Assembly (NCBI GenBank): GCA_001661245.1
Contig: KV454018.1
Coordinates: forward strand, 62,001-120,238
DNA: 58,238 bases
DNA from: Pachysolen tannophilus NRRL Y-2460
Lineage: Eukaryota
Direction of reading: 5' to 3'
A model generated the notes under the pieces. The model was not told where the DNA came from. It ran no database searches and was given only the letters and a program-made list of their open reading frames with translations. Shown piece after piece: positions 178 through 19,012 of the stretch; positions within the stretch are counted from its first letter, which is position 1, and the number at the start of each line of letters is the position of its first letter. The position numbers and the translations under genes were made by a program.

Positions 178-2334
178 ATGGGTCACTTGATAACTTTAGC
201 AACTTGTAATTTGAATCAATGGGCTTTGGATTTTGAAGGAAACAGAGATAGAATTGTGGAAAGTATTAAAATTGCAAAATCAAAAGGTGCAAGATTAAGA
301 GTTGGACCTGAATTAGAAGTCCCCGGTTATGGTTGTTTAGATCATTTTTTAGAAAATGATACTTATCTACATTCATGGGAAATGTATGCTTCTATATTAA
401 CAAATGAAGATACTTATGATATTGTATTGGATATTGGTATGCCAATTGTACATAAAAGTAGAAAATATAATTGTAGAATCTTATCTTATAATGGTAAGAT
501 TTTATTTATTAGACCAAAAATTTTTTTAGCAAATGATGGTAATTATCGTGAAATGAGATTTTTCACTCCATTTTTGAAAACAAATACTTGTGAAGAATAT
601 GTTCTTCCAAGATTAATTCAAAAAATTACTGGACAAGTTTGTGTGGATTTTGGTGATGCTGTAATTAGTACTTTAGATACCGCAATTGGTTGTGAAACTT
701 GTGAAGAATTATTTACACCTCTGTCACCTCATATTGCATTATCATTGGATGGTGTGGAGATTATTACTAATTCTTCTGGTTCTCATCATGAATTGAGAAA
801 GCTTAATACTAGAATGGAATTAATTTCAGAAGCTACTGCAAAATGTGGTGGTATTTATCTTTACGCTAATCAAAAAGGTTGTGATGGTGATAGATTATAT
901 TATGACGGTTGTGCATCAATTGCTGTCAATGGTAAGATTGTTGCTCAAGGTAGTCAATTTTCATTAGATGATGTTGAAGTTGTTACAGCAACAGTTGATT
1001 TAGAAGACGTTAGAGCTTATAGATCATCTATTTCTCATGGACTTCAAAGTAGAGAATCACCAAAATATAAAAGAATTCATGTTCCAATTGAATTGACACC
1101 TTCTTCAACTACTTTTGATATCAAGTTAAAACCAACAAAGATTAGAGAAATTAAGTATTATTTGCCAGAGGAAGAAATAGCTTATGGTCCTGCTTGTTGG
1201 TTGTGGGATTATGTTAGACGTTGTAAAGGTTCTGGATTTTTTTTACCGTTAAGTGGGGGTATTGATAGTTGTGCAACTGCTGTTATCGTATACAGTATGT
1301 GCTGTTTAGTAGTAGATGCAGCAAACAATGGAAATGCTCAAGTAATCGAAGATGCCAGAAGAATCGCCAATATGGAAGATGACAAAGATTGGAAACCAAC
1401 CGATCCTACTGAATTGGCAAATAAAATTTTCCATACTTGTTTTATGGGAACTACAAACTCTTCAAATGATACAAGGTCTCGTTCAAAAGAGTTGGCTTCC
1501 AAAATTGGTTCTTATCATGTTGATCTTAATATGGACTCATTAGTTACTGCTATCGTATCTATATTTGAAGTTGCCACCGGTAAGAAACCTGTTTTCAAAA
1601 TATTTGGAGGTTCAAACATTGAAAATTTGGCTTTACAAAATATTCAGGCCAGATGCCGTATGGTTCTAGCTTACTTGTTTGCTCAACTTTTACCTTGGAC
1701 CAGAGGTAGAACTAACACAGGTGGACTATTAGTTCTAGGTAGTGCAAACGTAGATGAACAATTACGTGGTTATTTGACTAAATATGATTGTTCTTCTGCA
1801 GATATTAACCCTATAGGTGGAATTTCTAAGACCGATTTGAAAAAGTTCATTAAGTTTGGCGTGAAAAGATTCGATCTCCCTATATTGCAGAGCTTTTTGG
1901 ATGCAACTCCTACTGCTGAGTTGGAACCTATCACGGAGAACTATGTTCAATCAGATGAGATCGATATGGGAATGACGTACGAAGAATTATCAATATTCGG
2001 TAGATTGAGAAAAGTTTCAAAATGTGGCCCATATTCAATGTTTATCAAGTTATTGCACGAATGGTCTGATGTGTATAAGCCAAGAATTATTGCTGAGAAG
2101 GTCAATCGATTCTTCTGGTACTATGCAGTTAACAGACATAAACAAACTGTTTCCACACCAAGTTATCATGCTGAACAGTATTCTCCTGATGATAATAGAT
2201 TTGATTTAAGACCATTTTTAATCAATCCTGCTTTTCCTTGGGCTAGAAAGAAGATAAATGAAATAGTGGAGACTTTGGAGATGAATGATGGCGAAGATAA
2301 ACATCACCAGTTAGAAAACATGGTTCTTACATGA
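178..2334 (+). CDS. QNS1: Glutamine-dependent NAD+ synthetase
   Basis: 718-aa ORF; N-terminal nitrilase-type domain ([28 protein letters not shown]) and NAD synthase domain ([46 protein letters not shown]). Confidence 0.97.
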
Positions 2335-2546
2335 ATTGCAGTTTTAATTTTTTTTTCTTTTAAAGGCGAATTATCAGTTTTTAGTTTACATATGAAAATG
2401 GTAGATACACTTTAAGTACATTTCTAATTATAAAAAATTAGATATTTAAAACAGTAGAAATCAACAATATAAATTTGTTCTAAGTGTCAGAAAATAAAAT
2501 TGAGTGAAAACCCAATGTGAACCATAAAAGACCCAGAAAATGTAAA

Positions 2547-5500
2547 TTAATCTATTGAAGCTAATTGATTTGGCGAACTGTTAATACCTTTAAAAACTTC
2601 TAAAAATTTATCTATTCCTGCGCTTAGATCATTAATTGAATTCTCATTATAATCATTCTGTCCACTTGAGTTTTCAATGTCTTCATTATTTAAATCAAAA
2701 GTCTTGTCTGCAAAATAACTGTCATTTGTTTTGATACTACTGTGAACCTTTTTGTAGTTCTCAAATTCAAGTTTCAAATTTTCGTTTTGCAAACTTAACT
2801 CATGAATTTTTTTCGTCAACTCTTCTTCTTTCTTAATAGCTGACAATTGATAGTTCTTGATATATATTTGTTGTTTTGACAAAATATTCTTGAATTTTTC
2901 TAAACTCAAAATTTTTTGGTTTATTAAATCTTCATAAGCACTAATTTTTAAGCTTTGTTCTTGAGTTTGCGAGAATAAAGAAGATATTTTCAAATTTTTC
3001 ATTTCTAGTTCCTTCTCGAGCGATGAAACCAGAGATTCATGAGCACCCAAGGATTTTTGATTACTCGAAAGTAAAATTTCCTGCTTTTCATGAGAGGACG
3101 TTAACTCTGAAAGTTCTGCTTTCAAAGAGTTGATAGTAACATCTTTAGTAGATACTTCTGTACTTAGATTATTCAACTCATTTTCTTTTGCTTTATTCTC
3201 TTTCTCTAAGTTGATAATGTTCTGGTTTGCAACAACCATTTTATCACTTAACGATTTCTTTAAGAAATTTAATTTTTCGTATAATTGCAACAGAACTGCA
3301 CTATCCATCAGGTTCTTAGGTATTTGTTCATCATTCTGTGAGGAAATAGGTAACACAGGTAGTGAAGTATCTTTTGATTCAGATTTATCATCTTTAAGAC
3401 CTTTATTATTCGTTAATTCCTCTTCTAAGCTTTTGAATTCGGAAGAAGAATCATTATCTTTGAAGCTAGAATTCTTATTCAAAACTGGAGTATCCTGATT
3501 ATTGCTAATATTTCTATTCAAAGAATCACCTGAATTATCATCATCATTGGAAGTGTGTACATTATTGAATAATTTATCTGTTGATTCTGAACCACTGTAT
3601 TTTCCAGAATACTTGTCCAACAAACTGCTCATTGTAAAGTTAGAAGTAACACTTTCATTATGATGATTGAGAAAAGATTTATCCGCTTCTTTTGATGAAC
3701 CCGTCAGCACAGCAGGATCTAATAAATTACTTCGAGAGTCTTTATCAAAGTTGGATATATTAATATTCAGAGAAATCAGATCACTCGATTTTTTAAATTC
3801 ATTCATTTCCTCTTCAAGTTTATTAAACCCATTGTTTTCAGTATCTTTAGAGGAAAATTTATCATTATTTATGTTAGAATGTGTACCTGTTTCCAGTTTT
3901 AAAGCATTTTGAGATCCAGATTCCTCTATTTTCGAATCATCCCTGTATATTTGAGAGTCGCCGCTTTTCACTCTGTGTCCTTGGGGAACTGGCGGCGATT
4001 TATGTTGTTTGCTTTGAGAGACTTGTCTTAAAACAGGAGTAACGTTTTTGCTAGAGTTAATGATTTCTGCAGTCTTAGTTCGTGTATTTTTAGAGTTTTC
4101 AGGACTGTTAGTGTTGTCATTGTTATTAACACTACCTCCACTTCTTATTCTTCTGTTTTTAGCAACGCTGATGCTATCAATTCTTTTAACACCAGAAGAT
4201 CCAGAGTAAATTGAAGTATTATGCGAAGAACTACTAACTCTATCTGAACGTTTGGTATCCTTACGTTGCCTTAAAGGAGTCGAAGAAAATATTTCATCAT
4301 CTTCAGGATGCGAAATTGACTTTGTTGAATGTGTTTCAAACGGAACTTTAGATTCTTCAGAAGCTTGAATTATTTCACTATCAGTTTCGTTTAACAGAGA
4401 TTTTGGAATCAGGTAAGTTTGTTCAACCTCATTATTTTCATTTTTACTATTGTCTTCCATGATCGCAATGTTTACTGATTCCAAAATATAATCTTCCAAT
4501 CTTGATAGATCGAATTCGTAAATATAAGTAGTTTTATACTCAAATTCATTAGGATCGATACCAGTCAATTCTAGTAAATCATCATTATCTGTATCGTTAA
4601 TGGAATCTAATACAACAATATCTTCTCTTGAATTATTATTTTCGGAATCCAATTGATCGCCTCCCATTATTAACAATTTTTCATTCACTAAGTCATAAGT
4701 AATGGAGTGGCCACTTCGTCTTCCAGGAGCATTCAAGCCATTGGTTGATATCTTGAAAGCTTCAAACGTATCCAAATTTATAGCAATAAAATGATCTAAT
4801 GTAAAACCGTTTGAATCTTTCCCACCATAACTTATTAAGTAATTCTGATATAACGTTGCAGCATGTTCTTCTAACAGTGGAGGTTGATACGTGGAAGAAT
4901 AGTTACAAACTTTCCATGATTCATCAAAGGGATTGAAACAATACAATTTATTTGATAAAGTTCCATTCATTGTAACACCTCCAAATATAAAAATCTTTCC
5001 CTCATACACTGTCATGGTATGGTTTGATAAAGGAGGAGGCTGAAACCTTGATATTTTACCCTTATTATTGTCATAAATCATTTTCCACTGAGTAGTTGGT
5101 TTTCTGAAATTTCTCAAATCAAAGCACCACATATCGTTAAACGTTTCCTCATCCAACTGACCACCAAATAAATACAAATAAGATGACCACGAAGCTTCTT
5201 CTGATTCTATTTCATTTTGGAAAGTTACAACTGTTATTGAGTGGCCATATCTACCTTTAGGCTTCAATCCCTGTGGCTGTGGAATTGTCCATTTTAATGA
5301 GTTGATGTTGAAAAAATAAAGACTGTTATCCAATTCACCTGAAGAATTCAATTGTATTGTATCACCTCCATAAACTATGAAAGCATTACCAATTAAAATT
5401 GAACTATGACCAACCCTTGGAGCAGGGATACAATCAAAATTTTCAATTGGTTTTGCAATGTATGAATAATCACTTGTTTGATCGTTTTTAACGGCATTAA

Positions 5501-5819
5501 TTTTCCATATATCACCATAGACATTACCATCACGTAAACCACCCATAACAAAAGTAGTTCCAGCGTCGGAAGAAGTTGTTGATGCTGTATGACGATACCT
5601 TGGAAAAGGAGAATTATATAATTTTTTCTTTTTCCAGGGCACCAGTTCACCATACTGGTCTTTGGCCGATACAGGAGTTCTATTATCAGCTATTTGAGTA
5701 CGATCTTTAGGAATTTCGTTTCTATTTTGATGAGAATTATATGTCAAATTTGGAGATCTATAAGACTGATCAGATCCCTGATATTGGAAATCAGTCATAC
5801 CATTGTTAGCGCCGTTAAA
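2547..5819 (-). CDS. KEL1: Kelch-repeat cell-polarity protein (Kel1/Kel2 family), main body; its 5' part appears displaced to 6319-6924 on the opposite strand
   Basis: Kelch repeats matching Kel1 (SPFPRYRH, GGLRDGNVYGD, PAPRVGHSS, PKGRYGHS, LYLFGGQ, GRRSGHS) and C-terminal coiled coil. The track ORF starts at a TTG (5930); the first in-frame ATG is at 5798. Confidence 0.88.
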   Translation of the reverse strand, partial: FNGANNGMTDFQYQGSDQSYRSPNLTYNSHQNRNEIPKDRTQIADNRTPVSAKDQYGELVPWKKKKLYNSPFPRYRHTASTTSSDAGTTFVMGGLRDGNVYGDIWKINAVKNDQTSDYSYIAKPIENFDCIPAPRVGHSSILIGNAFIVYGGDTIQLNSSGELDNSLYFFNINSLKWTIPQPQGLKPKGRYGHSITVVTFQNEIESEEASWSSYLYLFGGQLDEETFNDMWCFDLRNFRKPTTQWKMIYDNNKGKISRFQPPPLSNHTMTVYEGKIFIFGGVTMNGTLSNKLYCFNPFDESWKVCNYSSTYQPPLLEEHAATLYQNYLISYGGKDSNGFTLDHFIAINLDTFEAFKISTNGLNAPGRRSGHSITYDLVNEKLLIMGGDQLDSENNNSREDIVVLDSINDTDNDDLLELTGIDPNEFEYKTTYIYEFDLSRLEDYILESVNIAIMEDNSKNENNEVEQTYLIPKSLLNETDSEIIQASEESKVPFETHSTKSISHPEDDEIFSSTPLRQRKDTKRSDRVSSSSHNTSIYSGSSGVKRIDSISVAKNRRIRSGGSVNNNDNTNSPENSKNTRTKTAEIINSSKNVTPVLRQVSQSKQHKSPPVPQGHRVKSGDSQIYRDDSKIEESGSQNALKLETGTHSNINNDKFSSKDTENNGFNKLEEEMNEFKKSSDLISLNINISNFDKDSRSNLLDPAVLTGSSKEADKSFLNHHNESVTSNFTMSSLLDKYSGKYSGSESTDKLFNNVHTSNDDDNSGDSLNRNISNNQDTPVLNKNSSFKDNDSSSEFKSLEEELTNNKGLKDDKSESKDTSLPVLPISSQNDEQIPKNLMDSAVLLQLYEKLNFLKKSLSDKMVVANQNIINLEKENKAKENELNNLSTEVSTKDVTINSLKAELSELTSSHEKQEILLSSNQKSLGAHESLVSSLEKELEMKNLKISSLFSQTQEQSLKISAYEDLINQKILSLEKFKNILSKQQIYIKNYQLSAIKKEEELTKKIHELSLQNENLKLEFENYKKVHSSIKTNDSYFADKTFDLNNEDIENSSGQNDYNENSINDLSAGIDKFLEVFKGINSSPNQLASID

Positions 5820-5896
5820 ATTTTGAACTTGATGACGAAATTGTCGATGACGATTGGAATAACGACTTTGGTTTAGATGAGGATGACATGGTTTAG
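5820..5896 (+). CDS. Displaced C-terminal fragment (FELDDEIVDDDWNNDFGLDEDDMV*) inferred to belong to the 6925-8488 gene
   Basis: Frame 5822-5896 reads as a protein-like acidic tail ending TAG, preceded by an in-frame TAA (5816-5818) so it has no N-terminus, and followed by T-rich 3'UTR-like sequence. Confidence 0.75.
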
Positions 5897-6318
5897 GTTT
5901 ACAGGCAGTTTTGTTTTTTTTTTTGCTCAACTTTTATTAATAACAAATTTATGTTTATTTCTTTTTTTTTTTTCTTTCAATTCTCTTCTTACTACTACAC
6001 TCTTATGTCCTATCAGGCTTTCTTTATCTTCTCAATCTCAATCCTATACAGTATTAATATATATCTTCTATATAACTCTATATTATCGTAATCTGAAAGA
6101 GGTTTCTTAAAAATACAACAAAAGTAGTGTTGTGAACGAAAAGAGGAAAATTTTAAAATGAGCACCACAGGCAAAGTAAAGTAATCCTTTTATAAGGTGA
6201 TTATAGATTAGAATTAGATCCAACGGCGGTTAAGGAAGAGATTGGATTTCTTGGTACTGTCAACTTTGAAGGTTCTGTTTTGTTATTTTATTTGACATAT
6301 TGAGGAGCCAGGAGAAGA

Positions 6319-6924
6319 ATGCCGGCCAATTTTTTCAAGAAGAAGAAGAATCATTCCAATTCACAGAGACCTAGTGGTAATTCCCTGATCCCTGGTAAAC
6401 GTGATACATCAGATTCAAGCAGTTTAATTTCTGGCTCGATTACTTCCAAATCATCATTTCATCAATTGCCTCGAGCCTCGCTTCAACAGGATGTGTATAG
6501 TTATACGAGGAATGGGTCGTCGGAGTACCAACACCAAAACCCAAACCAAAGTCAAAGTCAAATTCAAAGCCAAAGCCAAAGTCAAAGCCTGCAGCAACTC
6601 CAGCAATTGCAATTGCAACAACAACAACAGCTGAGCCAACATCAGTATCATACGCCTTTATTAGCTGGGCAACAACAACATTATTTCCCCAATTCTCAAA
6701 GTGTTTCTCCCCCAGAGTATGCCACTCCTCCAACAACGGTTAATAGTAATTACTCTCCCTCGTACAAGACTCGTCAGTATAATTCGGCAAATATTCCAAT
6801 GCAATCGACTTTTGCTCAGCAACATCAATATAGGACCCAACCAACTTCTTATAGCGCTACTCCATCTCCTTATAATAGAAACTTGGAATATTCTAATGGC
6901 AGGAATTACCAACAAGCTCAGGGA
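6319..6924 (+). CDS. Displaced N-terminal part of the Kel1-like gene (S/Q/P-rich); as assembled it runs to a stop at 6945
   Basis: ATG start MPANFFKKKKNHS resembles the basic/aromatic start of Kel1 proteins; low-complexity Q/S-rich composition matches the stretch preceding the kelch repeats; overlaps the convergent ORF by 53 nt. Confidence 0.75.
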
Positions 6925-8488
6925 CTTCTGTTATATCATTTATAGCGCCTGTTCCTGTTGTAGTGGTGCCTTCTTTAGTACTGCTGGTGGTACCCGTGCC
7001 CACGCCTGTGCCGGTACCTATACCGGTACCTGTGCCCGATTTCCTATTGGAGAATTCTTTCATTTCAACAGGTCCTCTTGGTGGATTCTTACTCACATCA
7101 TTCCAACTTTCTCTATTTGCAGATTTTGAGTCCTTTTTATCTCTGGATCCACTGGATCCACTGGATTGAGCATGGTTACCATCTGGATGAGATCCTCCAT
7201 GAATAACAGCATCGACAACTGATTTTATCGATGAAGGAATCTTATATCCATGTGCCGATGATGCAGCAGTATCATCAAACAAATTCTTGATTCTATTCTC
7301 AGAAGAATGATGTTCCAATTCTTCAGGTTGACTAGGTACCTCATAAAAGGATTCAGTGGCTGTAGTCTCATTTTGTTGTTCAGAAAGATCAAGAAAATTT
7401 AATTTTTCAAATTCAGATTGTATATAATTATCAACTTGTGAAAGAATACCCCATAATGAACTTTTCTTATTATTACTACCACCAACCCCACTATCTCTAT
7501 TTGTCTGTCTTTGTCTTGGTGGATTATTTAAATTAGCAAGTGATGAGGATTGTGAATTTGTAGTACTAGAATTAAAATTATCATCCAATGGATGTTGCCT
7601 TGTATGATTTTTATTTGAAGATGGTGATGCAACCAAGTTTTTCCTACTTGGCGGATTAGGAAAGACTCCTAGCTGAGGTTGAATAGGTGTATTTTGAGCT
7701 GAAGAACTTATATGTTTGTATAGATTTTTTTCGACATTTTTTTTCAATACTTCAAATTCCATTTCCATTGTCTTTTTCTTGGTAAGTAAATTTTTAATAG
7801 TTTCCTTTATTTCCAATATTTCCAGTTCCTTTGTCGCCAATTCTCTTAAATCTTTTGATAATGTATCTTCGTTATTAACTTTGCTTGGTGAAGAACCTCC
7901 TGGTAATGATAGCCCATCATCTAAAGTCTGACTTATTTGAGGAAATCTTGGAGTCTCTGGTGATGGAGTTGGACTTATATCAACATTGTCAATAAGATTA
8001 TGAGACATCCTGTTTTCAGACTTATTACTTAAGCTCATTGGAGGAGTTCCTGCTTGACTTGTAGGTGGTTGATTAGAATCCTCTGAAGACACAACAGGAA
8101 TATTGAAATTAATACCAGATATTCTCTTATTAGATGAATTTTTCTTCCCAGTAGATGAATTCGACCCGATACTCAATTGTCTATAATGAGATTTCGAAGA
8201 AGAATTTAACTGCAGCCTTGCCTGAGAGACTTTACTAGTACTGCTACTACCATTATTATTATTATTATTGCTGTTTGTATTGGTATTAATATTTCTTGTT
8301 TTGGGTAAAGTAGAAGCTGTCACTTCCTTGCTTTTAGGATTCAGAACTGGTGTCTTGAAAGTTGATTCAACGGGACTCTCCATTGGAGGAGTTATAATGT
8401 TAGTTCCATCAACATTACCAGAGCTATCAGTTGGAGTCACAATTTTTTTGATACTCTCGACGTTATCACTAGAATCTGGTGATGACAT
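6925..8488 (-). CDS. Low-complexity coiled-coil protein, probably Tda11-like; as assembled ends at 6893, true C-terminus inferred at 5820-5896
   Basis: 531-aa ORF, S/N-rich, with coiled coil LRELATKELEILEIKETIKNL and motif SLWGILSQVDNYIQSEFEKL reminiscent of Tda11. Confidence 0.65.
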
Positions 8489-9025
8489 TTCCAGAATTAC
8501 CTTTCAAAATGAGTCTCAGTTCAAGTACACTCTTAAGACTATTATCAATAAGAAATATTTTGACTCAGTAAAACTGTTACGCTGCTATCGTTGCTTCTGT
8601 TCTTACTGATGTCGCTAACACTACTGCGGTATTAATCAGCAATGATAAATATGATAGAGATAACGACAATGAATAAAATTATTGGTAAAAACAAAAAAAA
8701 AAAAAAAACACCACAAAAGAAAAAACAAAAAAAAAAGTCAACTTTATATATCAAAATTACTCAAATATATTATATTATCAATGGAGTTGACTGGTAACAA
8801 AACAATTTTACCTGTTATCAATGTCATTTAATATTATAATATTTTAAAATCTTTCTTATCACTTTTTTGTATTTTTATTTTTTTCACCTTTTTTTCTTTT
8901 TTTGTGTACTTAACTCAACCTAATTGAGATACATAATATAGAACAGAAACGGGTATTAAACTTGAACCAGCCAAAACGGTTTTAGGTTGGACCAGCAAGC
9001 AAGTGATTTGTTTTTTTGAAAAGAG

Positions 9026-9688
9026 ATGTACAAGTCATCTGAACGATCTAAGGATGAAGAGAAAACCAAAGGATCGAGATATCGTGAGTCAAGATATCGT
9101 GAATCAAGACATCGTGATAAACATGACGTTTCTCATGGGAATTTGTCTTCTTCAAGTAGAAATAGAGAAAAATCACCAGTACGAGAGTTAAAACCTGTAG
9201 ATAGGAAAGAAAATAACAATAACGTTGGGATACAATTGAAGCCATCAGGATTATTAGGACGAAATGAAAAGAGTAAAAAAATAGCTCTGTCCAAAAAAGA
9301 GAATGATAAATATTCACCTCCAAAAGATTCAATAGTACCGGCATCTTTATCTAAGAGTTTTCAACTTTTTTTATTCAAAAGTGAAGACGATAAAGATGCA
9401 ACTAAAATAGTTCTTTCTTCGAAATCTTTTTACATAATTGGAAAAGATGAAGAAGTTTGTGATATTATTGTTAGAGATAGTGATACTGTGTCTTCGCAAC
9501 ATGCAGTTGTTCAGTTTAGAGAAAAATCAACAGGAAATGTATCGCTGTATATAATAGATATGGACTCAAAAAATGGGAGTTTTTTAAATGAAGTGGAAAT
9601 TCCAAAAGAGAGGTATATTGAATTGAAAAATCAAGATATACTTAGGTTTGGTGAGAGCGATTGGGAGTATATTTTCATAAGTTCATAA
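9026..9688 (+). CDS. PML1: FHA-domain pre-mRNA retention/splicing factor (Pml1/SNIP1-like)
   Basis: RS/RE-rich N-terminus, KPSGLL motif, C-terminal FHA domain (YIIGK, TVSSQHAVVQFR, IIDMDSKNGSFLN, YIELKNQDILRFG). Confidence 0.8.
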   Translation: MYKSSERSKDEEKTKGSRYRESRYRESRHRDKHDVSHGNLSSSSRNREKSPVRELKPVDRKENNNNVGIQLKPSGLLGRNEKSKKIALSKKENDKYSPPKDSIVPASLSKSFQLFLFKSEDDKDATKIVLSSKSFYIIGKDEEVCDIIVRDSDTVSSQHAVVQFREKSTGNVSLYIIDMDSKNGSFLNEVEIPKERYIELKNQDILRFGESDWEYIFISS

Positions 9689-9902
9689 GTATATAATAAA
9701 CTGCAAAAATAGATGTTATACAAGAAACCTTATAAAAAGGTCATTTTGTAATGAATAAAACCTATATTCTCTTTCTATAAACACCAATGGTACTTTGAAA
9801 CAAATAAAAAAAAAAAAGTTCAAAAAATCAGAAAGAAGTAAAAAAGAAAAAAGTAACAATATATGATACAAAAGTAAAAGCCTTTTTTCTATATTAGGTT
9901 CT

Positions 9903-12554
9903 TCAATCATTCCGTTTGAAAAACTTACCAAAGTTCTTAAAGTTATCATTAAATTTCATATTATCGATGGTTTTGGCGAGATTTTTCTCAACCAGATCTT
10001 TTCTTGTAATCAAATTCTTAATAGGTTCGCCCCCATTTTGCCCATTGGCCGTTGTGCTATTTGAATTATTTGATGTATTATTATTATTATTGTTATTACT
10101 ATTATTATTGGATGGAGTGTTACCGAAAGGAATGGATATACTTGGGAATCCCTTAAGAGCCGGCGAGTTCGGAGAAGCAACAGAGTTTGTAGAAGTTTTT
10201 GAATTTATCAACCACGGAGGATAATTATCATAGTTATAGTCTATTTGGTCAACATTCAAATTTTCTAAAAATTTTAAACTTCCAACTAGAGATTTATTAC
10301 CATTACCTGTAGAGATATTATTATCATCTGCATCAATCAAGTTATCCTCGTACTTTGTTAACTTTTCTTCAAAAGTTTTAGAATATTTTGATAATTCAAC
10401 TCTGTTGAAATTTATATTTTGAGCTGATGTTGGTAGAATGCCTTTAATTTTCAATATCTTGATAAAATTATTAAAATTTCTATCACCAATTATGAAAAAA
10501 TAATTCATTACAAAATTATCAATGGGTTTAAACTGGATCAACAATAACTTTAAAATATTTTCTATATTCCCCAAAGATTGATTGATAAACCTTATATATG
10601 CTTTTGAAGATAATTCTTCTTGTTGCTTATACAATTCTGGTAAATTGATTAAATTTTTTTTCAAAACTTGTATATCAAGTAAAAACTGTTCTGACATTAC
10701 TTCATTGATTGGTTTTAATTTGATCATATTAATTAAAAATGAATAACTAATAAGTTCAACTAGTTTATTCATAAAATTTTTAGTATATATAACTCTATTG
10801 ATTTTTTCAAATATTACAATACAATTTGAATTAATAGTTTTACTGATATCAGATGTATAACTAGATGAATCTTCAACACTATTCAAATTTTTCCAATTTA
10901 AATTGATCATTGTTCTCCATTGTAATGATAAATCTTCACTTATTTTGAAAACCAATAAATTTAAACATTCATTTATTAATTGCATAAAAACTTCTTTAAC
11001 TTTTGAAAAATTTTGTTCAACTTTACTAGAGAATTTCTCATTTATTAATGATGTTAATCTTTCTTGTAATTGAGATATTGTTAATGAACAATAATCTGCA
11101 GTATTTAAAACTAAACAAGCATAAGTTAAAACTTGTTGATTTTCTTCTTCATTATTATTTTTTATTGTTTTAAAATCTGGTATTATTGGTTTTAAAATCA
11201 AATCATGATATTTGTTCAAATATTTAACAAATATTGCAGATAATTTTAATAATGGTTCTCCTGTAGATAATTTTGACAATTGTGATAATAATGATCTATA
11301 AATTCTAAATAAATCAGCAGATGAAGTTAAAATGTTTAAAGAATTTTCATCTTGTTCATGATGTTCATCTGAACCATCATTATTTTCTAATAACTTTGAA
11401 GGGTTTAAAAATTCTAAAAATTTATCATTAATTATCTTTTCTTGATGATCCAACCAAACATTTAAATATGGTTCAAATACAGAAGAAATTTGTTTATCAA
11501 AATTTATTTCCTTTTTTTCTTGATTTATATTTTTATTAACAAGTATATTTTTAAATTTAAATTTCATATTTAAAAAATTTTCAAATTCTAAAGTTTCTGA
11601 TAATGAATTTAATAATAAATTAACATTAATATTTTTTGATTCTTTTTGTAAAACTTCTTTTAAATCTTGTTTTGTAAAATAACAAAATCTATCACTTAAT
11701 TGATATAAAATATTCCATTCTGATGGAAATTTTGATGAATATCTTAATTCAACATTTTTGAAAACTCTTCTGAAAAAAATATATCTTCTACTTAAATTTT
11801 CTAAAGAACCAGCTTCTTCTGTACTTTTAAAAATTGATTGAATTTCTTTTAATTGATTATTTATAAACCAATTTAATAATTTATCATGATAAGAATTTCC
11901 TAATAAATCCAATATTTTACAAGCATTTAATAATTCCATATTTGAACGAGATTGATTTAATTCTTTATCAAAATCATTAAAAATTTCATCAACTATCTTT
12001 GTTTTTAAACTATTAACTTTTTTATTTAAATTATTAATATCATCAATACTTTTATAACTTTGAAAATGATCCATAAATTCTAATACAACACTTAATAATT
12101 GATAAATTTCATAATAATCTTTATTATTGGAATTATAAATAATATGTTCAACATTATTATATGAAGTTATTAACATTTGTAATCTTTTCAAAATTGTCAT
12201 TGATAAAGTTACATTTTTTTTACAATTATCCAATTTTTTAATATTATGTGTCATAGAATTTATAGTCCTTTCAGTTGTCTTTGCCAATTTTTTAGTATTT
12301 TCCATATCAATTATTAAATCATTTAAATCAATTTCAATCAGTGAAAGTGTACTATTAGCATTCACAGAATCTTCATTATATTTACTCCTCCGAGTATCAA
12401 TCTCTAAATCCAATTTTTGCTTATAAGTATTTGTGAAAAAAATCAAATCATCCAATTCCAATAACGCTGATGGCGATCGAAATAATTCATCTAAATGAGC
12501 AATAGGAGAATATTCAACTGACTCCAAGTCAGTATCTTTATCTCCCATTGTCAT
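9903..12554 (-). CDS. VPS53: GARP complex subunit Vps53
   Basis: 883 aa; Vps53_N motifs IKKLDNCKKNVTLSMTILKRLQML, EEAGSLENLSRRY, ISSVFEPYL, LNTADYC, EQFLLD. Confidence 0.95.
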   Translation of the reverse strand: MTMGDKDTDLESVEYSPIAHLDELFRSPSALLELDDLIFFTNTYKQKLDLEIDTRRSKYNEDSVNANSTLSLIEIDLNDLIIDMENTKKLAKTTERTINSMTHNIKKLDNCKKNVTLSMTILKRLQMLITSYNNVEHIIYNSNNKDYYEIYQLLSVVLEFMDHFQSYKSIDDINNLNKKVNSLKTKIVDEIFNDFDKELNQSRSNMELLNACKILDLLGNSYHDKLLNWFINNQLKEIQSIFKSTEEAGSLENLSRRYIFFRRVFKNVELRYSSKFPSEWNILYQLSDRFCYFTKQDLKEVLQKESKNINVNLLLNSLSETLEFENFLNMKFKFKNILVNKNINQEKKEINFDKQISSVFEPYLNVWLDHQEKIINDKFLEFLNPSKLLENNDGSDEHHEQDENSLNILTSSADLFRIYRSLLSQLSKLSTGEPLLKLSAIFVKYLNKYHDLILKPIIPDFKTIKNNNEEENQQVLTYACLVLNTADYCSLTISQLQERLTSLINEKFSSKVEQNFSKVKEVFMQLINECLNLLVFKISEDLSLQWRTMINLNWKNLNSVEDSSSYTSDISKTINSNCIVIFEKINRVIYTKNFMNKLVELISYSFLINMIKLKPINEVMSEQFLLDIQVLKKNLINLPELYKQQEELSSKAYIRFINQSLGNIENILKLLLIQFKPIDNFVMNYFFIIGDRNFNNFIKILKIKGILPTSAQNINFNRVELSKYSKTFEEKLTKYEDNLIDADDNNISTGNGNKSLVGSLKFLENLNVDQIDYNYDNYPPWLINSKTSTNSVASPNSPALKGFPSISIPFGNTPSNNNSNNNNNNNTSNNSNSTTANGQNGGEPIKNLITRKDLVEKNLAKTIDNMKFNDNFKNFGKFFKRND

Positions 12555-13391
12555 TAAAAATCTCTTGATATAACAACCAACAATGGAAAGAAATAAGAAA
12601 TATATATATATATATATATATATAATATTTTCTTAATGAAGAATGATTATAATACAAACTGATTTCGTTATACACATTTTCTTATTTTTTTAGTAAATTC
12701 TTGGTTTACTCTTATTACCTTACTCAGTCAGTCAATCAAATCAGTTAGTTAATAGAGAGAGAGAAAAAAAAAAAATCTAGCCATATTGGGTAATTACTGT
12801 ATTGGGTATGTATACAGGTAAAATCTCATACAATTCCCAATTTGGAAAATAAATTTTATCTTTCTTTTTTCAGAAAGAAATTAGAAATAGTGCACTCTAA
12901 ACCAAAAACTACTATTTAGGAAGGTGTTTCGAAACGTACGGTTTTTTTTTTCATTTTCTTCATTTTCTCGGATGCGGTAACCGGTTAGAGCGATTGGGCC
13001 CCCATTCTCTCCCACGCTCTCCCACGCTCTCCCACTCTCTCCCACCAATTTACCAATTTACCAAAGAGATCTGTCCGGTTTTCTTTCGCCGATAACCAAA
13101 CAGGCAAAGAGAGAAGATAGACAGGCAGACAAGCCGGCAGACAGACCGGCAGATACTCCAATTGCAACTGCAACTATAATTCCAGAAGTGAAGTATAATA
13201 TACTAGAGAAAATGATATAAATTCAGTAGTTGGCCCTTGGATGAACAATTTGAAATAAAAATTAAAAAAAAGAAAAAAGGATCTCATTATAACTTGGTTC
13301 TTTATCAGTTTTGAAGATTGAAAAATTAAAAAATTGTCAATTTCTATTAGTAGTAGTAAAGATTATAAGTTAGATAAAAAAGAAAGGAAAA

Positions 13392-13787
13392 ATGCCAGAA
13401 AGAATATCTTGGGAACAAATTAATAAAACAGGCAATAGTCTTTTATCACCAGCTTACAAGTCCAATGGACACGTATTCACTTCAGGTTCGGTTGGAGTTG
13501 ATCCTGTTACTGGTAAGATTCCAGAAGATTTGGAAACACAGGCTGAAATTGCAATTGCAAATTTGAAGCATGTCTTGGAGAAATCTGGAACATCCATTGA
13601 TAAGGTGCTAAAAGTTTTATTATTTATTGGTCATCCTTCTTATGCTGCTACAGTCAATAAAGTCTATGCAAAATACTTTATTAACAAACCAGCAAGATCA
13701 TGTGTTGTTGTTTCATTCCCAAACCCAAACGTTAAAGTTGAGATGGAATGTATTGCTGAGTATGAAGAAATTAAAACTAAATTATAA
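13392..13787 (+). CDS. RidA/YjgF/YER057c/UK114-family enamine/imine deaminase with PTS1-like C-terminus
   Basis: 131 aa; VFTSGSVG, NLKHVLEKSG, VNKVYAKYF, KPARSCV (catalytic Arg), KVEMECIA; ends TKL. Confidence 0.9.
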   Translation: MPERISWEQINKTGNSLLSPAYKSNGHVFTSGSVGVDPVTGKIPEDLETQAEIAIANLKHVLEKSGTSIDKVLKVLLFIGHPSYAATVNKVYAKYFINKPARSCVVVSFPNPNVKVEMECIAEYEEIKTKL

Positions 13788-14140
13788 TAAAATAAAAAAG
13801 AGAAAAAAAAAACCATATTCTATTTTTTTTAGTTTTTACATATGTAGTATTAGTTGACTTGAGTCTTTAAACTCTTATCCAATACAATACTTGACTATTT
13901 TATTTCTATATTTTTGTATTGTAATTTAATTTAATCTCTTTTTATAGTTAAATCTTGACTTTATATAAGAAAAATTAAAAACAGTAAATTTTTTTTTCAT
14001 TTCTTTTTCTTTTGTTTTTTTTGAGTTTATTTTTGACTTGATGCTCAGTAATAAACGGTTTGTCTTTTTTTTTTTTAGGTTTGACTATTTGGATGAGATA
14101 GAGATCGGATTTTCTATTGGGAATAGTCGAGCAATAGCAT

Positions 14141-16957
14141 ATGTCAAAAGCTAGTGGTAATGATGATCATGACGATAAATCTTCAGAAGAAATTACTTTA
14201 CCGAGATTTTTGTTAATGAGACCGTCTTCTTCTTTACTGCTTAATGCAGAATTGAACCAAATCAATAACAACGATAACGAGAACGGTGAAGTTGAAGATG
14301 ACGATGACGATGACGATAATAATAATGACGATTACGACGATAACCATGATGATAATGACAATAATAATGATGAAGAGTCTTTGGAAGCTATAGATGAGAA
14401 TGCTTCTTTAAAAGATGAAGAAGAACCTACTAAGATCAAAATCAATGATGCATCAGAAGATTTTTTCGATGATGAGAGTGCAATGAGTAACCCTGATCAT
14501 TATACTTCTTCAAGTTCAGATAGCATAAACCTCGGTAACTCGGATGGAACAACTAAAGATCTGACAGCAGCTACAGCAGCAGCAGCAGCTGGTGCTGGTA
14601 ATGCTGGTGCTTCTTCTTCTTCTGAAGATACAGCAACTGGTGAAAAACTTGCCAAAATTTCTAGTAACAAATCCCAGTTAAGTCGAGTATCTTCAACAAC
14701 TTTAAAATTAAAGGCTAAATTTAAGAAAACAATGACAAATGGTACAAATTCGATATTGAATCATGGATTTGGATTTAAAAATAATAAAATAAATGTTGGA
14801 AATAGAATTCAAAAAAATCTCAAGTCGATTAATCAGGTAATAGATGAAGAAAAAAATATTGGGAATACAGATTTAGATGATACGAATGCAGATTCAGGTT
14901 CATCAGCTTCTCCTGAATTATCATCAACTCAGGCACAAACAATAGTTAATCAACATCAAAGTCTTACAAAGATGTTGAAAAATAAAGAGAATCCACTGGA
15001 TGAATCGCGTTTTTTATCTCCCAATACAAATACTTTTTTCAATAGTTCTGATGAGGAAAACGACTATGATAGTTGCTTTGATGATCTTGATGCTTCAGCT
15101 AATGACTACATTGCACCACCTAAAAATGTACAAGCAGGTGTTTTATCTTCATTATTGAGATTATATCAAGGTGAAACTCTTTTCCATCATAAATCAGATA
15201 GTAGTTCTATCTTTTCAGAGAAAACAAATAATAGTGATATTCTTTCACCACAGAAATCTAGAGATAGTATTAACGAAAGAAAACCTAGATCAAGATTAAG
15301 AGAACATGCTTCTAGAAGAAGTTCAAGATCGGAATCGAATTTTAGATCAAAATCACCATTATCAGGAATAAAACATCATATAAATAATTCAGAACTGGAT
15401 ATTAGAAATGCTATACGTCTGACTTCACCAATAAATACACACCTTAAGAGACCACCACAACCTACAAGAAATGCTTCTTCTTCTTCATTTGTCAATATTA
15501 TGAATAGTTTAAGAGCAGAATCACCTGCACCATCATTATTTAAGAAAAAATCATCATCTGCTTATTTTGAAAATTTACCAACTTTCCATAAACATAGAAA
15601 ATCTAAAAAACAAAAAATAATTGAAAAATTAGAAGCTAGAGAAGCTAAAATTACTGTTCATATTGCAAATATTTTACAAAGACAAAGATTTATTATTAAA
15701 ATTTGTAAAGCGTTAATGTTATATGGAGCACCAACACATAGATTAGAAGAATATATGATAATGACAGCTAGAGTCTTAGAAATTGATGCACAATTTATGT
15801 ATATTCCTGGTTGTATGCTTATTTCATTTGGAGATGTTGCAACAAGGACATCTGAAATGCAATTAATTAGATGTTCTGAAGGTTTAAATTTAGCTAAATT
15901 ATATGATGTTCATAATATTTATAAAGAAGTTGTTCATGATTTAATAGGTGTTGAAGAAGCAAACAAGAAAATAGATGAATTACTTTCAAGGAAACCATTA
16001 TATAATCGATGGATTTTAGTTTTATTAAATGGTATAGCAAGTGCTTTAGTAACATCTTGGGGTTTTAAAGGAGGATGGAGAGATATGCCTATTTCATTTA
16101 TATTGGGATTAATAGTAAGTTTTTTACAAAATTTTATTGCACCAATGTCAAAAACTTATTCATCAGTTTTTGAAGTTAGTGCTTCAATTATTGTTTCATT
16201 TTTAAGTAGAGCTTTTGGTGCAATTAATGGAGGTAGTACATTTTGTTTTAGTGCAATTGTTCAAAGTTCTTTATCATTAATCTTACCTGGTTATACCATC
16301 TTACTTGGTTCACTTGAATTACAATCTAGAAGTATTGTTTCTGGATCAGTAAGAATGTTTTATGCAATCATTTATTCTTTATTTTTAGGTTTTGGTATAA
16401 CTTTAGGTGGTGCTATGTATGATTGGGTAACAAGAAATGATACAGTTTTAACATCATGTCCCGATAGTATTCAACTTTCCCCATATTTTAGAATGTTATT
16501 TGTACCATTATACTCTCTGAGCCAAGGATTATATTGTCAAGCAAGAATAACACAACTTCCTGTAATGGTACTTATTGCATGTTCAGGTTACGTTGGTTAT
16601 TATTTTGCTGCAAAACATTTTACAAATTCTACAGAATTAAGTTCAGCAATTGGTGCCCTAATAATAGGAGTCATGGGTAACTTATACTCAAGAGTATTCA
16701 AAGGTATGGCCGTAGTTGCAATGTTACCAGGAATATTCTTATTAGTCCCAGGAAGTCTTGGTGTGAAAAGTACAATTGTAGCAGGTGTTAATCTTGCAAA
16801 TAGTCTTGTTAGTGGTACTTCTACAGATAGCACCTCGACTTTGACTTTTGGTATCACAATGGTCGAAATCGCAATAGGTCTCAGCGTAGGATTAATTGCT
16901 GCAACCTTAATCATATACCCTTTGGGGAAAAAGAAAACTGGATTATTCACCTTATAA
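14141..16957 (+). CDS. PRM10: Pheromone-regulated membrane protein 10-like (ThrE/DUF1212 family)
   Basis: Acidic disordered N-terminus, GVLSSLLRLY, ITVHIANILQRQRFI, ALMLYGAPTHRLEEY, then about 10 hydrophobic segments. Confidence 0.88.
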   Translation: MSKASGNDDHDDKSSEEITLPRFLLMRPSSSLLLNAELNQINNNDNENGEVEDDDDDDDNNNDDYDDNHDDNDNNNDEESLEAIDENASLKDEEEPTKIKINDASEDFFDDESAMSNPDHYTSSSSDSINLGNSDGTTKDLTAATAAAAAGAGNAGASSSSEDTATGEKLAKISSNKSQLSRVSSTTLKLKAKFKKTMTNGTNSILNHGFGFKNNKINVGNRIQKNLKSINQVIDEEKNIGNTDLDDTNADSGSSASPELSSTQAQTIVNQHQSLTKMLKNKENPLDESRFLSPNTNTFFNSSDEENDYDSCFDDLDASANDYIAPPKNVQAGVLSSLLRLYQGETLFHHKSDSSSIFSEKTNNSDILSPQKSRDSINERKPRSRLREHASRRSSRSESNFRSKSPLSGIKHHINNSELDIRNAIRLTSPINTHLKRPPQPTRNASSSSFVNIMNSLRAESPAPSLFKKKSSSAYFENLPTFHKHRKSKKQKIIEKLEAREAKITVHIANILQRQRFIIKICKALMLYGAPTHRLEEYMIMTARVLEIDAQFMYIPGCMLISFGDVATRTSEMQLIRCSEGLNLAKLYDVHNIYKEVVHDLIGVEEANKKIDELLSRKPLYNRWILVLLNGIASALVTSWGFKGGWRDMPISFILGLIVSFLQNFIAPMSKTYSSVFEVSASIIVSFLSRAFGAINGGSTFCFSAIVQSSLSLILPGYTILLGSLELQSRSIVSGSVRMFYAIIYSLFLGFGITLGGAMYDWVTRNDTVLTSCPDSIQLSPYFRMLFVPLYSLSQGLYCQARITQLPVMVLIACSGYVGYYFAAKHFTNSTELSSAIGALIIGVMGNLYSRVFKGMAVVAMLPGIFLLVPGSLGVKSTIVAGVNLANSLVSGTSTDSTSTLTFGITMVEIAIGLSVGLIAATLIIYPLGKKKTGLFTL

Positions 16958-17251
16958 ATTTGTACTATATACTATACTATAATAGAGGTATTAAACATTC
17001 TCTTTATAGCTGAAAATTTTTTTGTAAAAAACGGTAGTGTCTTTTGTAACAAATAAATGTTTATGTCCTGAAAATTTTCCAATTGAAAAGAAAGGTTTTT
17101 TTATTTAACCAACGCGTTGAACAAGTCTCCGGTATATAGAAAGAAAGAAAGAACCAAATATATATTAATATATTAATATATTAATATATTCTTTTCAATT
17201 TTAATAAAAATTTTTTATTAAAAAAAAAAGTGATTTTCTATTGGTTTGATC

Positions 17252-19012
17252 ATGTCGCTTAAGTTACCTCAAGCGCCAAATGCTGGGCTTTTTAAAAATG
17301 GGTATCAGACATATTCAAGTAGTGATGGGGCTATTGTTAGAAATATTCAAGCTTGTAAAGAGGTTACATCTATGTGTTTAACAAGTATTGGGCCATGTGG
17401 TCGTAATAAGATTATTGTTAATCATCTTGGTAAAGTTTTCATAACAAATGATGCTGCTACGATGTTGAAGGAATTGGATGTTGTTCATCCTGCTGTTAAG
17501 ATATTATGTATGGCATCAAATCAACAAGAACAAGAAATGGGTGATTTAACTAATTTTGTAATGATTTTAGCTGGAGAATTATTATTACTTAGTGAAAAAT
17601 TAATAAATTTAGGTTTACAACCAATTGAAGTCATTAATGGTTATAATTTAGCAAAAATTTTTACAATTAAAGAATTGGATAATTTAGTAGTTGATGAAGT
17701 TAAAAGTTTAAATGATAAAAATGAATTATTAAAAATTATTAAACCTGTAATTTCTTCAAAACAACATGGTTTAGAAGAATTAATTAGTGAATTAGTAGTT
17801 GATGCTATATTAAGTGTTTTACCTAAAAATAAAAATACAAAAATTACTAATTTTAATGTTGATTCTATAAGAGTTGTTAAAATTATGGGATCTTCTTTAG
17901 AAAATTCATTTATTGTTAAAGGTATGGTTTTCCCAAGAGAACCTGAAGGTCATATTAAAAAAATTAATTCAAAATCAAAAGTAGCAGTATATACTTGTCC
18001 TATTGATATTTCAACAACAGAAACAAAAGGAACTGTACTATTACATAATGCTCAAGAAATGTTGGATTTTAGTACTGGTGAAGAACAACAATTACATCAA
18101 ATGGTAAAAGAAATTCATTCAAGTGGAGTTAGAGTTGTAATTGCTGGTGAAGCCGTTGGTGAATTGGCATTACATTATTTGAACAGATTTAATATCTTAG
18201 TATTAAAAGTCCCATCTAAATTTGATTTAAGAAGAATTTGTAGAGTTTGTGGTGCTACTCCATTACCAAGACTTGGTGCACCAATGCCAGAAGAAGCTGG
18301 TACTATTGATATTGTAGAAACTAAAGAAGTTGGTGGTGATAGAGTTACAATTTTTAAACAAAATGAAGAAGATATTTCTAAAACTGCAACTATTGTCATT
18401 AGAGGTGCAACAAAAAATAATTTGGATGATATCGAAAGAGCAATTGATGATGGTATAAATTCTGTAAAAGGTTTATTAAAAGATCCTAGATTACTTCCAG
18501 GTGCAGGTTCAAGTGAAATAGAATTAGTTGGAAGAATTACAGCATATGGAGAAAAAACTCCAGGTTTGTTACAATTAGCAATTAAAACGTTTGCTAAAAG
18601 TTTTGAAGTTATTCCAAGAACTTTAGCAGAAACATCTGGTTTAGACACTTCAGAAGTCATATCTAGATTATATGCTTCTCACTCAAAACATAAGGACTCA
18701 TCTACTTCTACATCTACGACTACTTCAACCACCGAAAGTGCTGGTAGTGAAATCGATGCATCAGTCTCTGATGTTGATAGAGATGCTCTCACTTATGGTA
18801 TTGACTGTGATAGTGAAAGCGCTGATGGTTTATGTGATGTTGTTGAAAAAGGTATTTTTGATTTGTTATGCTCTAAAAAGAACGCAATTAATTTAGCTTG
18901 TGATGCTGCATGTACTGTTTTAAGTGTTGATCAGATTATCATGGCTAAAAGAGCAGGTGGCCCAGTCATGCCACAGCAACCAAAACCAGGTAACTGGGAT
19001 CAAGATGATTAG
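17252..19012 (+). CDS. CCT8: Chaperonin CCT/TRiC subunit theta
   Basis: ATG at 17252 (MSLKLPQAPNAGLFK); TSIGPCGRNKIIVNHL, TETKGTVLLHNAQEML, VDQIIMAKRAGGP, C-terminal GNWDQDD. Confidence 0.97.
   Translation: MSLKLPQAPNAGLFKNGYQTYSSSDGAIVRNIQACKEVTSMCLTSIGPCGRNKIIVNHLGKVFITNDAATMLKELDVVHPAVKILCMASNQQEQEMGDLTNFVMILAGELLLLSEKLINLGLQPIEVINGYNLAKIFTIKELDNLVVDEVKSLNDKNELLKIIKPVISSKQHGLEELISELVVDAILSVLPKNKNTKITNFNVDSIRVVKIMGSSLENSFIVKGMVFPREPEGHIKKINSKSKVAVYTCPIDISTTETKGTVLLHNAQEMLDFSTGEEQQLHQMVKEIHSSGVRVVIAGEAVGELALHYLNRFNILVLKVPSKFDLRRICRVCGATPLPRLGAPMPEEAGTIDIVETKEVGGDRVTIFKQNEEDISKTATIVIRGATKNNLDDIERAIDDGINSVKGLLKDPRLLPGAGSSEIELVGRITAYGEKTPGLLQLAIKTFAKSFEVIPRTLAETSGLDTSEVISRLYASHSKHKDSSTSTSTTTSTTESAGSEIDASVSDVDRDALTYGIDCDSESADGLCDVVEKGIFDLLCSKKNAINLACDAACTVLSVDQIIMAKRAGGPVMPQQPKPGNWDQDD

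What the first reader, a model, noticed from the sequence alone, without database searches (positions are those of the whole stretch)
5820..6924. ~1.1 kb inversion that splits two neighbouring genes; flipping it repairs both in frame
Seen: the minus-strand Kel1-like ORF has no proper ATG/promoter; a plus-strand ORF at 6319 looks like its missing N-terminus; a plus-strand headless acidic tail sits at 5822-5896; and the 6893-8488 gene overlaps the 6319 ORF convergently. Reverse-complementing 5820-6924 gives Kel1-like MPANFFKK...YQQAQG|FNGANNGMTDF (1292 aa) and the upstream gene ...AINDITE-D-FELDDEIVDDDWNNDFGLDEDDMV* (546 aa), with a normal terminator/promoter spacer between two tandem genes. Both junctions are in frame with no base lost or gained (one in three by chance; a few nearby breakpoint pairs work equally well). 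No inverted repeats at the ends. Inference: either a recent clean inversion (separating a polarity/morphology gene from its promoter, possibly a switchable or strain-specific allele) or an assembly/processing artefact.
Basis: partly seen in the sequence, partly recalled or inferred. Interest (0 to 1): 0.92.

Follow-up and report, generated by a model that had tools for sequence, protein, structure and literature searches.

The report
Mis-oriented 1.1 kb piece in assembly
A 1.1 kb stretch lies backwards in this deposited yeast genome sequence and cuts two neighbouring genes, but contigs built from the raw sequencing data carry it the right way round, so it is almost certainly an assembly error rather than biology.

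Summary
Reverse-complementing 5820-6924 gives a 1292-aa Kel1-like protein and a 546-aa Tda11-like protein.

Independent read-derived contigs settle the interpretation. One 8822-nt contig from run X1 (study P1) carries 5832-6924 in the opposite orientation to its flanks and bridges both junctions. One 6964-nt contig from run X5 (study P2) shows the same Kel1-side junction. Neither contig has a substitution against the window. No laid contig shows the window's orientation, and X2 and X4 laid nothing.

The read-supported breakpoints are 5831/5832 and 6924/6925, with one base ambiguous. The proteins then come to 1296 and 542 aa.

Relatives agree:
- The closest relative's Kel1 (P0137, 1251 aa) is one polypeptide that starts MAPFFKKK.
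- 107 of 119 homologues carry that N-terminal motif.
- 6 of 9 Tda11 relatives end in an acidic tail.

The public gene model P0001 starts at the internal ATG, so the error probably sits in the deposited record.

Verdict: assembly artefact (about 0.85), not a real inversion or switch. Its only value is for curation.

The parts
5832..6924 (.). The 1093-bp segment that lies in the wrong orientation in the window (equivalently 5831-6925; one base is ambiguous).
   Evidence: table 8. The X1 contig maps 4300-5831 (-), 5832-6924 (+) and 6925-8500 (-). The X5 contig joins 5830 to 6925 on opposite strands. One search shows that the two equivalent flips give the identical sequence.
2547..5831 (-). 3' part of the Kel1-like gene (1094 codons plus stop), holding the Kelch beta-propeller and the C-terminal part. 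The public model P0001 covers only 2547-5798.
   Evidence: Pfam Kelch families, best E 1.5e-68; 676 homologues at E<=1e-10; 52% identity to P0137 over 561 aligned residues. P0001 equals the table-26 translation of 2547-5798.
6319..6924 (+). 5' part of the Kel1-like gene (202 codons, starting MPANFFKKKK), stranded on the opposite strand by the mis-orientation.
   Evidence: 107 of 119 Kel1/Kel2 homologues start with the same hydrophobic-basic motif; short matches to residues 2-9 and 116-131 of P0137, in the same order as in P0137.
6925..8488 (-). 5' part of the Tda11-like gene (521 codons plus the first base of the next codon).
   Evidence: 11 relatives at E<=1e-3. UniRef or NCBI name 5 of the 8 distant relatives looked up 'Topoisomerase I damage affected protein 11'; the window's own model P0121 carries the same UniRef name.
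5832..5896 (+). 3' end of the Tda11-like gene: two bases that complete the split codon, 20 codons of an acidic tail containing one Trp, and the stop at 5894-5896.
   Evidence: the frame and its translation; 6 of 9 relatives have at least 7 D/E in their last 25 residues, and 2 of 9 also have a Trp in the tail.
5897..6318 (.). 422-bp spacer between the Tda11-like stop and the Kel1-like ATG. In the true orientation it is an ordinary terminator/promoter spacer between two tandem minus-strand genes. It holds long T runs.
   Evidence: One search gives the sequence. One search shows TT extra behind 5913 in the X1 contig and repeats skipped at 5945-5989. The promoter/terminator role is inferred and was not tested.

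Best explanation
The deposited assembly of this CUG-Ala budding yeast carries a 1093-bp piece (5832-6924) in the wrong orientation, joined seamlessly to its flanks. Tool outputs name the organism through its own proteins as Pachysolen tannophilus NRRL Y-2460. In the real genome the piece lies the other way round. That gives two intact tandem minus-strand genes: a Tda11-like gene (542 aa, acidic C-terminal tail), then a 422-bp spacer, then a Kel1-like gene (1296 aa, starting MPANFFKKKK).

Shown: the orientation in read-derived contigs of two studies, the intact frames, and the same order of blocks in relatives. Inferred: that the error arose in assembly or finishing, for example a small piece placed in the wrong orientation and abutted without a gap. 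The step that caused it cannot be named with these tools.
For: 1.. A Logan contig of run X1 (8822 nt, depth 37) spans 4300-8500. It carries 5832-6924 on the opposite strand to both flanks and bridges both junctions with no substitutions. A contig of run X5 (6964 nt, depth 137; a different study and year) joins 5830 to 6925 on opposite strands, which is the same Kel1-side junction. So 2 of 2 runs that laid a contig show the repaired form and none shows the window's form.

2.. All five holder runs hold 0.94-0.95 of the sampled words and none holds 1.00. My arithmetic: two junctions plus two indel sites remove about 120 of 2371 possible words, or 5%.

3.. The read-defined flip gives open frames of 1296 and 542 aa.

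4.. The closest relative's Kel1 (P0137, 1251 aa) is a single polypeptide. It has the N-terminal motif at residues 2-9, a YNxANIP block at 116-131 and the Kelch part from residue 254. The window has the same three blocks in the same order once flipped.

5.. 107 of 119 homologues start with the hydrophobic-basic motif. The 208-aa ORF has it and the truncated ORF does not. As a control, the pattern matches 6 of 313 Met-started open frames in the window.

6.. 6 of 9 Tda11 relatives end in an acidic tail.

7.. There are no terminal inverted repeats that a recombinase could use.

8.. The public model P0001 (NCBI-sourced, on a 947,628-bp contig) starts at the internal ATG. This indicates that the deposited record already has the inverted arrangement.
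Against: - Contigs drop rare variants, so a minority of molecules in the window's orientation cannot be excluded (caveat stated).
- X2 and X4 laid nothing, and X5 does not cover the second junction.
- X1 may be the sample the assembly came from, so the only clearly independent support is X5, at one junction.
- A seamless junction with no base lost or gained and no gap Ns is unusual for a simple scaffold mis-orientation, and I cannot name the assembler step that produced it.
- The data actually used for the deposited assembly may include runs that are not listed.
- The closest relative's Tda11-like call (P0122, 367 aa) ends soon after the VEMKKF block without an acidic tail.
- The N-terminal piece alone found no longer homologue in the word-based search.
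Confidence: 0.85

Rival explanations
1. A real two-break inversion without repeats (end-joining type) exists in the particular clone or DNA preparation behind the deposited assembly, or in a subpopulation of it. It truncates Kel1 and Tda11 in that clone, while other cultures of the same strain keep the ancestral form.
For: The junctions are seamless with only 1 nt of shared sequence, as expected of a clean two-break event. The deposited record's gene model matches the inverted form. Contigs cannot exclude minor variants.
Against: X1, which carries the same organism label and dates from 2011, and X5, from another study, both show only the repaired form with 0 substitutions across 4.2 kb. None of the 5 holder runs holds all the sampled words.
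Confidence: 0.08
2. The inversion was introduced after deposition, when this window was processed for the scan, and is absent from the public record.
For: The junctions are exact to the base. The window also contains a 340-N run at 46356-46695. I could not read the public DNA record directly.
Against: P0001, held in the collection from NCBI and UniRef sources on a 947,628-bp contig, equals the table-26 translation of 2547-5798 and starts at the internal ATG. With the repaired orientation the open frame would run 213 codons further upstream to an ATG, and a gene caller would be expected to take it.
Confidence: 0.04
3. A programmed, reversible DNA switch flips the segment to turn the Kel1-like polarity gene on and off.
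For: Only the geometry supports this: the segment carries the promoter and the 5' end of one gene and the 3' end of the other.
Against: There are no inverted repeats at the ends. Only one orientation appears in the contigs of two studies. The window's form destroys two genes rather than swapping promoters. No recombinase gene lies among the five neighbours scanned.
Confidence: 0.01

Closest known systems
Mis-oriented fragments in draft genome assemblies (for example the rhesus macaque BBS1 case, PMC3426473)
   Same: A genomic piece lies in the wrong orientation relative to its neighbours, breaks a gene model, and is exposed by comparison with relatives. I read the two 'wrong orientation' passages of PMC3426473. 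Inversions as a class of misassembly are the topic of PMC4542784, of which I saw only the search listing and the start of the abstract.
   Different: Here the piece is only 1093 bp and is joined to both flanks with no gap and no base lost. It cuts two genes at once. It is contradicted directly by read-derived contigs of the same organism.
Small evolutionary inversions in yeast gene order
   Same: Short inversions of one or a few genes are common between yeast species.
   Different: Those inversions have breakpoints between genes and are fixed in the lineage. This one has both breakpoints inside coding sequence and is absent from the reads.
Site-specific invertible DNA switches (Hin/Gin-type in bacteria, FLP/FRT of the yeast 2-micron plasmid; recalled)
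   Same: A segment that carries a promoter and a gene's 5' end changes orientation.
   Different: There are no flanking inverted repeats. No recombinase was found among the neighbours scanned. Only one orientation is seen in the contigs.
Kel1/Kel2 kelch-repeat proteins and Tda11 of budding yeasts
   Same: The repaired genes match these families. Kel1-like: Kelch propeller, N-terminal motif and a length near that of P0137 (1296 against 1251 aa). Tda11-like: homology to proteins named Tda11. The two genes are also neighbours in Ogataea philodendri, where they carry consecutive locus tags 003573 and 003574.
   Different: Nothing unusual remains once the orientation is corrected.

Membership tests
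Assembly mis-orientation (artefact) | Independent read-derived sequence of the same organism contradicts the orientation in the assembly. | tested here: met
   the X1 contig bridges both junctions in the opposite orientation, and the X5 contig bridges the Kel1-side junction. 2 of 2 runs that laid a contig agree. X2 and X4 laid nothing.
Assembly mis-orientation (artefact) | Apart from orientation, the sequence is the same strain (no divergence that would point to another allele or strain). | tested here: met
   0 other letters in 4201 nt for both X1 and X5. The only differences are homopolymer-type insertions inside the segment (TT behind 5913; 3 gap letters in all).
Assembly mis-orientation (artefact) | No raw read supports the assembly's junctions. 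| not testable with these tools
   All runs are held as contigs, which drop rare variants. There is only indirect support: none of the 5 holders has all the sampled words.
Programmed invertible switch | Inverted repeats at the two ends of the invertible segment. | tested here: not met
   the nearest pairs to the breakpoints are 16-17 nt at 71-75% complementarity, among 112 chance-level pairs. The junctions share 1 nt.
Programmed invertible switch | Both orientations present in DNA of the organism. | tested here: inconclusive
   One search shows only the repaired orientation in contigs of 2 runs, and contigs cannot show minor forms. The window's own orientation is known only from the assembly.
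Kel1/Kel2 family | Kelch-repeat beta-propeller in the N-terminal half. | tested here: met
   PF24681 at E 1.5e-68, with other Kelch models.
Kel1/Kel2 family | Conserved hydrophobic-basic motif at the very N-terminus (MAPFKFGKK / MAPFFKxK type). | tested here: met
   107 of 119 homologues match a pattern I wrote after seeing the data. The 208-aa ORF matches and the truncated ORF P0001 does not. The feature is met only in the repaired arrangement.
Tda11 family | Sequence homology to proteins named Tda11. | tested here: met
   E 2.6e-7 to 8.9e-4 to P0123, P0124, P0126, P0129 and P0131. One search shows these named 'Topoisomerase I damage affected protein 11' by UniRef or NCBI; for P0124 the name is on its cluster member P0132.
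Tda11 family | Match to a curated family model. | tested here: not met
   no Pfam family reaches its cut-off for the window protein or for 7 relatives. The only matches are weak TSC22 coiled-coil hits below threshold.

The most novel reading that the evidence does not exclude
The inversion is real in the DNA that was assembled. On this reading it is a recent, repeat-free, two-break inversion private to the reference clone or a subpopulation of it, which cut a cell-polarity gene (Kel1-like) off from its promoter and N-terminus and removed the acidic tail of the Tda11-like protein. Other cultures of the same type strain keep the ancestral form.
Probability: 0.07. Interest if true: 0.35.

Novelty: not a real feature. 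Interest (0 to 1): 0.07.

Why it matters
The finding matters for curation only.

- Two public gene models of this yeast are wrong because of it. The Kel1-like model is 1083 aa where 1296 aa is expected. The Tda11-like model is 476 aa with an invented short intron where 542 aa is expected.
- Anyone who uses this reference to study polarity genes or structural variation would read a false inversion.
- For the scan it is a clear example that a seamless, in-frame "inversion" in a draft assembly can be an artefact, and that read-derived contigs resolve the question quickly.

If the inversion were real after all, it would be an ordinary loss-of-function structural allele.

Tried and rejected
- no whole genome is held for this window, so I could not look for a second copy or other mis-oriented pieces.
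- the 202-aa N-terminal piece searched against longer proteins gave no hit at E<=1e-3 among 6538 candidates. The piece is low in complexity and the tool calls this weak evidence. The link was made instead through the homologues' N-termini and P0137.
- Pfam gave nothing usable for the 208-aa ORF, the 24-aa tail or the Tda11-like protein.
- the word-based search with the Tda11-like part found only the window's own model and P0122.
- no RNA holder is listed, so expression and strand could not be examined.
- X2 and X4 laid no contig (the tool says a filter can cause this), and X5 has no cover of 6979-8500.
- a search for inverted repeats at seed 6 found nothing at the breakpoints beyond chance-level pairs.
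- the scan has no earlier notes on this genome. One note on another genome (a Naegleria micro-inversion) did not bear on the verdict.
- I considered and rejected an intron or trans-splicing explanation, because the two parts lie on opposite strands.
- I considered and rejected the 208-aa ORF as a separate conserved gene, because its start motif and its YNxANIP block lie inside the single Kel1 polypeptide of the closest relative.
- I did not try to find out how the deposited assembly was made.

Full report
**What is in the window**

The region holds four pieces.
- A minus-strand ORF at 2547-5798 (1083 aa).
- A plus-strand ORF at 6319-6945 (208 aa, starting MPANFFKKKK).
- A minus-strand ORF at 6893-8488 (531 aa). 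It overlaps the 208-aa ORF convergently by 53 nt.
- A short acidic plus-strand reading that ends at the stop 5894-5896.

The frame of the 1083-aa ORF stays open upstream of its ATG as far as a stop at 5934-5936.

**What the genes are**

The 1083-aa ORF carries a Kelch beta-propeller (Pfam PF24681, E 1.5e-68). It has 676 homologues at E<=1e-10. The best named ones come from Kuraishia, Candida boidinii, Ogataea and Komagataella, and many are named Kel1 or Kel2.

The 531-aa ORF matches no Pfam family. HMMER against 1.84 billion representatives finds 11 relatives at E<=1e-3. I looked up eight of the distant ones. Five are named "Topoisomerase I damage affected protein 11" by UniRef or NCBI: those from Kuraishia, Komagataella, Ogataea philodendri, Scheffersomyces and Lodderomyces. 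The window's own public model P0121 carries the same UniRef name.

In Ogataea philodendri the two genes bear consecutive locus tags, 003573 for Tda11 and 003574 for the Kel1 homologue P0005. The adjacency is therefore old.

The public models translate CTG as Ala. All 11 CTG codons of the Kel1-like ORF are read that way, and P0001 equals the table-26 translation. Tool outputs name the organism of these models as Pachysolen tannophilus NRRL Y-2460.

**The decisive test**

Five public runs hold the stretch 5200-7600. X1-X4 belong to study P1 (2010-2011) and X5 to study P2 (2023). Each holds 0.94-0.95 of the sampled words and none holds 1.00.

I laid Logan's read-derived contigs of X1, X2, X4 and X5 on 4300-8500.
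- **X1:** one 8822-nt contig (depth 37) covers the whole stretch in three pieces: 4300-5831 on the minus strand, 5832-6924 on the plus strand and 6925-8500 on the minus strand. In the reads' own assembly the middle piece therefore lies the other way round relative to both flanks, and both junctions are bridged.
- **X5:** one 6964-nt contig (depth 137) joins 5830 to 6925 on opposite strands. This is the same Kel1-side junction, with one ambiguous base. The contig ends in the T-rich repeat near 5990, so the second junction is not covered.
- **X2 and X4:** nothing was laid. The tool warns that a filter can cause this.

Neither X1 nor X5 has a single substitution against the window. X1 has TT extra in the T run behind 5913 and three gap letters in all, every one inside the segment.

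So 2 of 2 runs with a laid contig show the repaired orientation, and none shows the window's. My arithmetic on the word shares fits this. Two junctions and two indel sites remove about 120 of 2371 possible 31-letter words, or 5%. That matches the 0.95 seen in all four P1 runs. This is soft support that X2-X4 also lack the window's junctions.

**Exact breakpoints**

The read-supported segment is 5832-6924. Flipping 5831-6925 gives the identical sequence. The four codons QVQN on the minus strand belong to the Kel1-like gene and not to the acidic tail.

With the read-defined flip the Kel1-like protein is 1296 aa, from 202 codons at 6319-6924 plus 1094 codons at 2547-5831. The Tda11-like protein is 542 aa, from 6925-8488 plus 5832-5893. 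The stop lies at 5894-5896, and 422 bp of spacer (5897-6318) separate the two tandem genes.

**Agreement with relatives**

I wrote a start motif after seeing the data: Met, 1-5 residues, two hydrophobic F/L positions, then K/R. Of the 119 best Kel1/Kel2 homologues (P0002-P0120), 107 match it. The 208-aa ORF matches and the truncated ORF does not. As a control, the pattern fits 6 of 313 Met-started open frames of at least 50 aa in the window.

The closest relative was first seen as a 1036-aa call without this start (P0002, 52% identity). That looked like evidence against my reading. Its cluster, however, also holds a 1251-aa form, P0137, which starts MAPFFKKK and runs without a break into the P0002 sequence.

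P0137 carries three blocks in this order.
- The start motif at residues 2-9.
- A YNxANIP-STF block at residues 116-131. It matches residues 154-169 of the 208-aa ORF with 10 of 16 identical (E 0.014 for the single comparison).
- The Kelch part from residue 254.

The window has the same order only after the flip.

For the Tda11-like gene I counted D/E in the last 25 residues of nine relatives. I left out the window's own model P0121. I also left out the 1254-aa P0130, which matches only in short stretches. Six of the nine have at least 7 D/E in the last 25 residues, and two of those (P0125, P0128) also have a Trp in the tail. The displaced tail has 11 D/E in its last 21 residues and one Trp. 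The window's present ORF end has 3 D/E in its last 25.

One result goes against this. The closest relative's call, P0122 (367 aa, from read-derived contigs), stops soon after the VEMKKF block with no acidic tail.

**Where the error sits**

P0001 is held from NCBI and UniRef sources on a 947,628-bp contig. It starts at the internal ATG. With the true orientation the frame would run 213 codons further upstream to an ATG. The deposited record therefore very probably carries the inverted arrangement.

P0121, the public Tda11-like model, shares 464 residues with the ORF. It then uses a 40-nt intron that begins GTGAGT (7057-7096) and ends in another frame at 7021. That looks like a gene predictor's rescue of a gene that had lost its true end. 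Because the intron lies outside the segment, it is not diagnostic of the inversion on its own.

I could not read the public DNA itself.

**Mechanism and rivals**

There are no inverted repeats at the ends. None of the five neighbours scanned is a recombinase: they are an NAD synthase, an FHA protein, Vps53, a ThrE-family protein and a TCP-1 chaperonin. The window's form breaks two genes. A programmed switch is therefore very unlikely.

A real repeat-free inversion in the assembled clone cannot be strictly excluded, because contigs drop rare variants and the assembly's full source data are not known to me.

How the artefact arose is inference only. A small piece placed in the wrong orientation during scaffolding or finishing and abutted without a gap would give this picture. 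A seamless join is not the commonest signature of that. All indel differences to X1 lie inside the segment, but so do the only long homopolymers, so this does not tell the possibilities apart.

Wrongly oriented pieces that break gene models are a documented class of draft-assembly error. One example is the BBS1 case in the rhesus macaque draft (PMC3426473, two passages read). Inversion misassemblies are also treated in PMC4542784, of which I saw only the listing and the start of the abstract.

It is similar in kind but did not affect this verdict.

**Verdict**

- This is not a real biological feature, and its interest is low except for correcting the record and its two gene models.

Noticed in passing
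window 7021-7097 (-): The public Tda11-like model P0121 (476 aa) follows the ORF for 464 residues. It then splices out a 40-nt intron beginning GTGAGT (7057-7096) and ends in another frame at 7021. This is probably a spurious intron made by the gene predictor.
   Followed up: partly
window 2547-5798 (-) and 6893-8488 (-): Public protein models read CTG as Ala (NCBI table 26). All 11 CTG codons of the Kel1-like ORF are Ala in P0001, and P0001 equals the table-26 translation.
   Followed up: yes
window 46356-46695: There is a run of 340 N, the only one in the window. It is either a scaffold gap or a withheld stretch.
   Followed up: no
window 5905-5990: Homopolymer differences between the window and the X1 contig: TT extra behind 5913, and three gap letters in all within 5832-6924. 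The tool skipped T-rich repeats at 5945-5989. This suggests homopolymer-length errors in one of the two sequences.
   Followed up: no
window 2547-8488; relatives P0005 and P0126: Tda11 and Kel1 homologues are neighbours in Ogataea philodendri too, with consecutive locus tags 003573 and 003574. From memory, not checked here, KEL1 and TDA11 are also adjacent in S. cerevisiae (YHR158C and YHR159W).
   Followed up: partly
proteins P0002 and P0137 (closest relative, read-derived contigs): One 90% cluster holds a 1036-aa and a 1251-aa call of the same Kel1 homologue. The short one starts where the long one has V-RYGQ, so the two differ only in the start codon chosen. Short calls in such collections can mimic N-terminal truncation.
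   Followed up: yes
window 178-19012: The neighbouring genes are ordinary housekeeping genes: glutamine-dependent NAD synthase (178-2334), an FHA-domain protein (9026-9688), Vps53 (9903-12554), a ThrE-family membrane protein (14141-16957) and a TCP-1 chaperonin subunit (17252-19012).
   Followed up: partly
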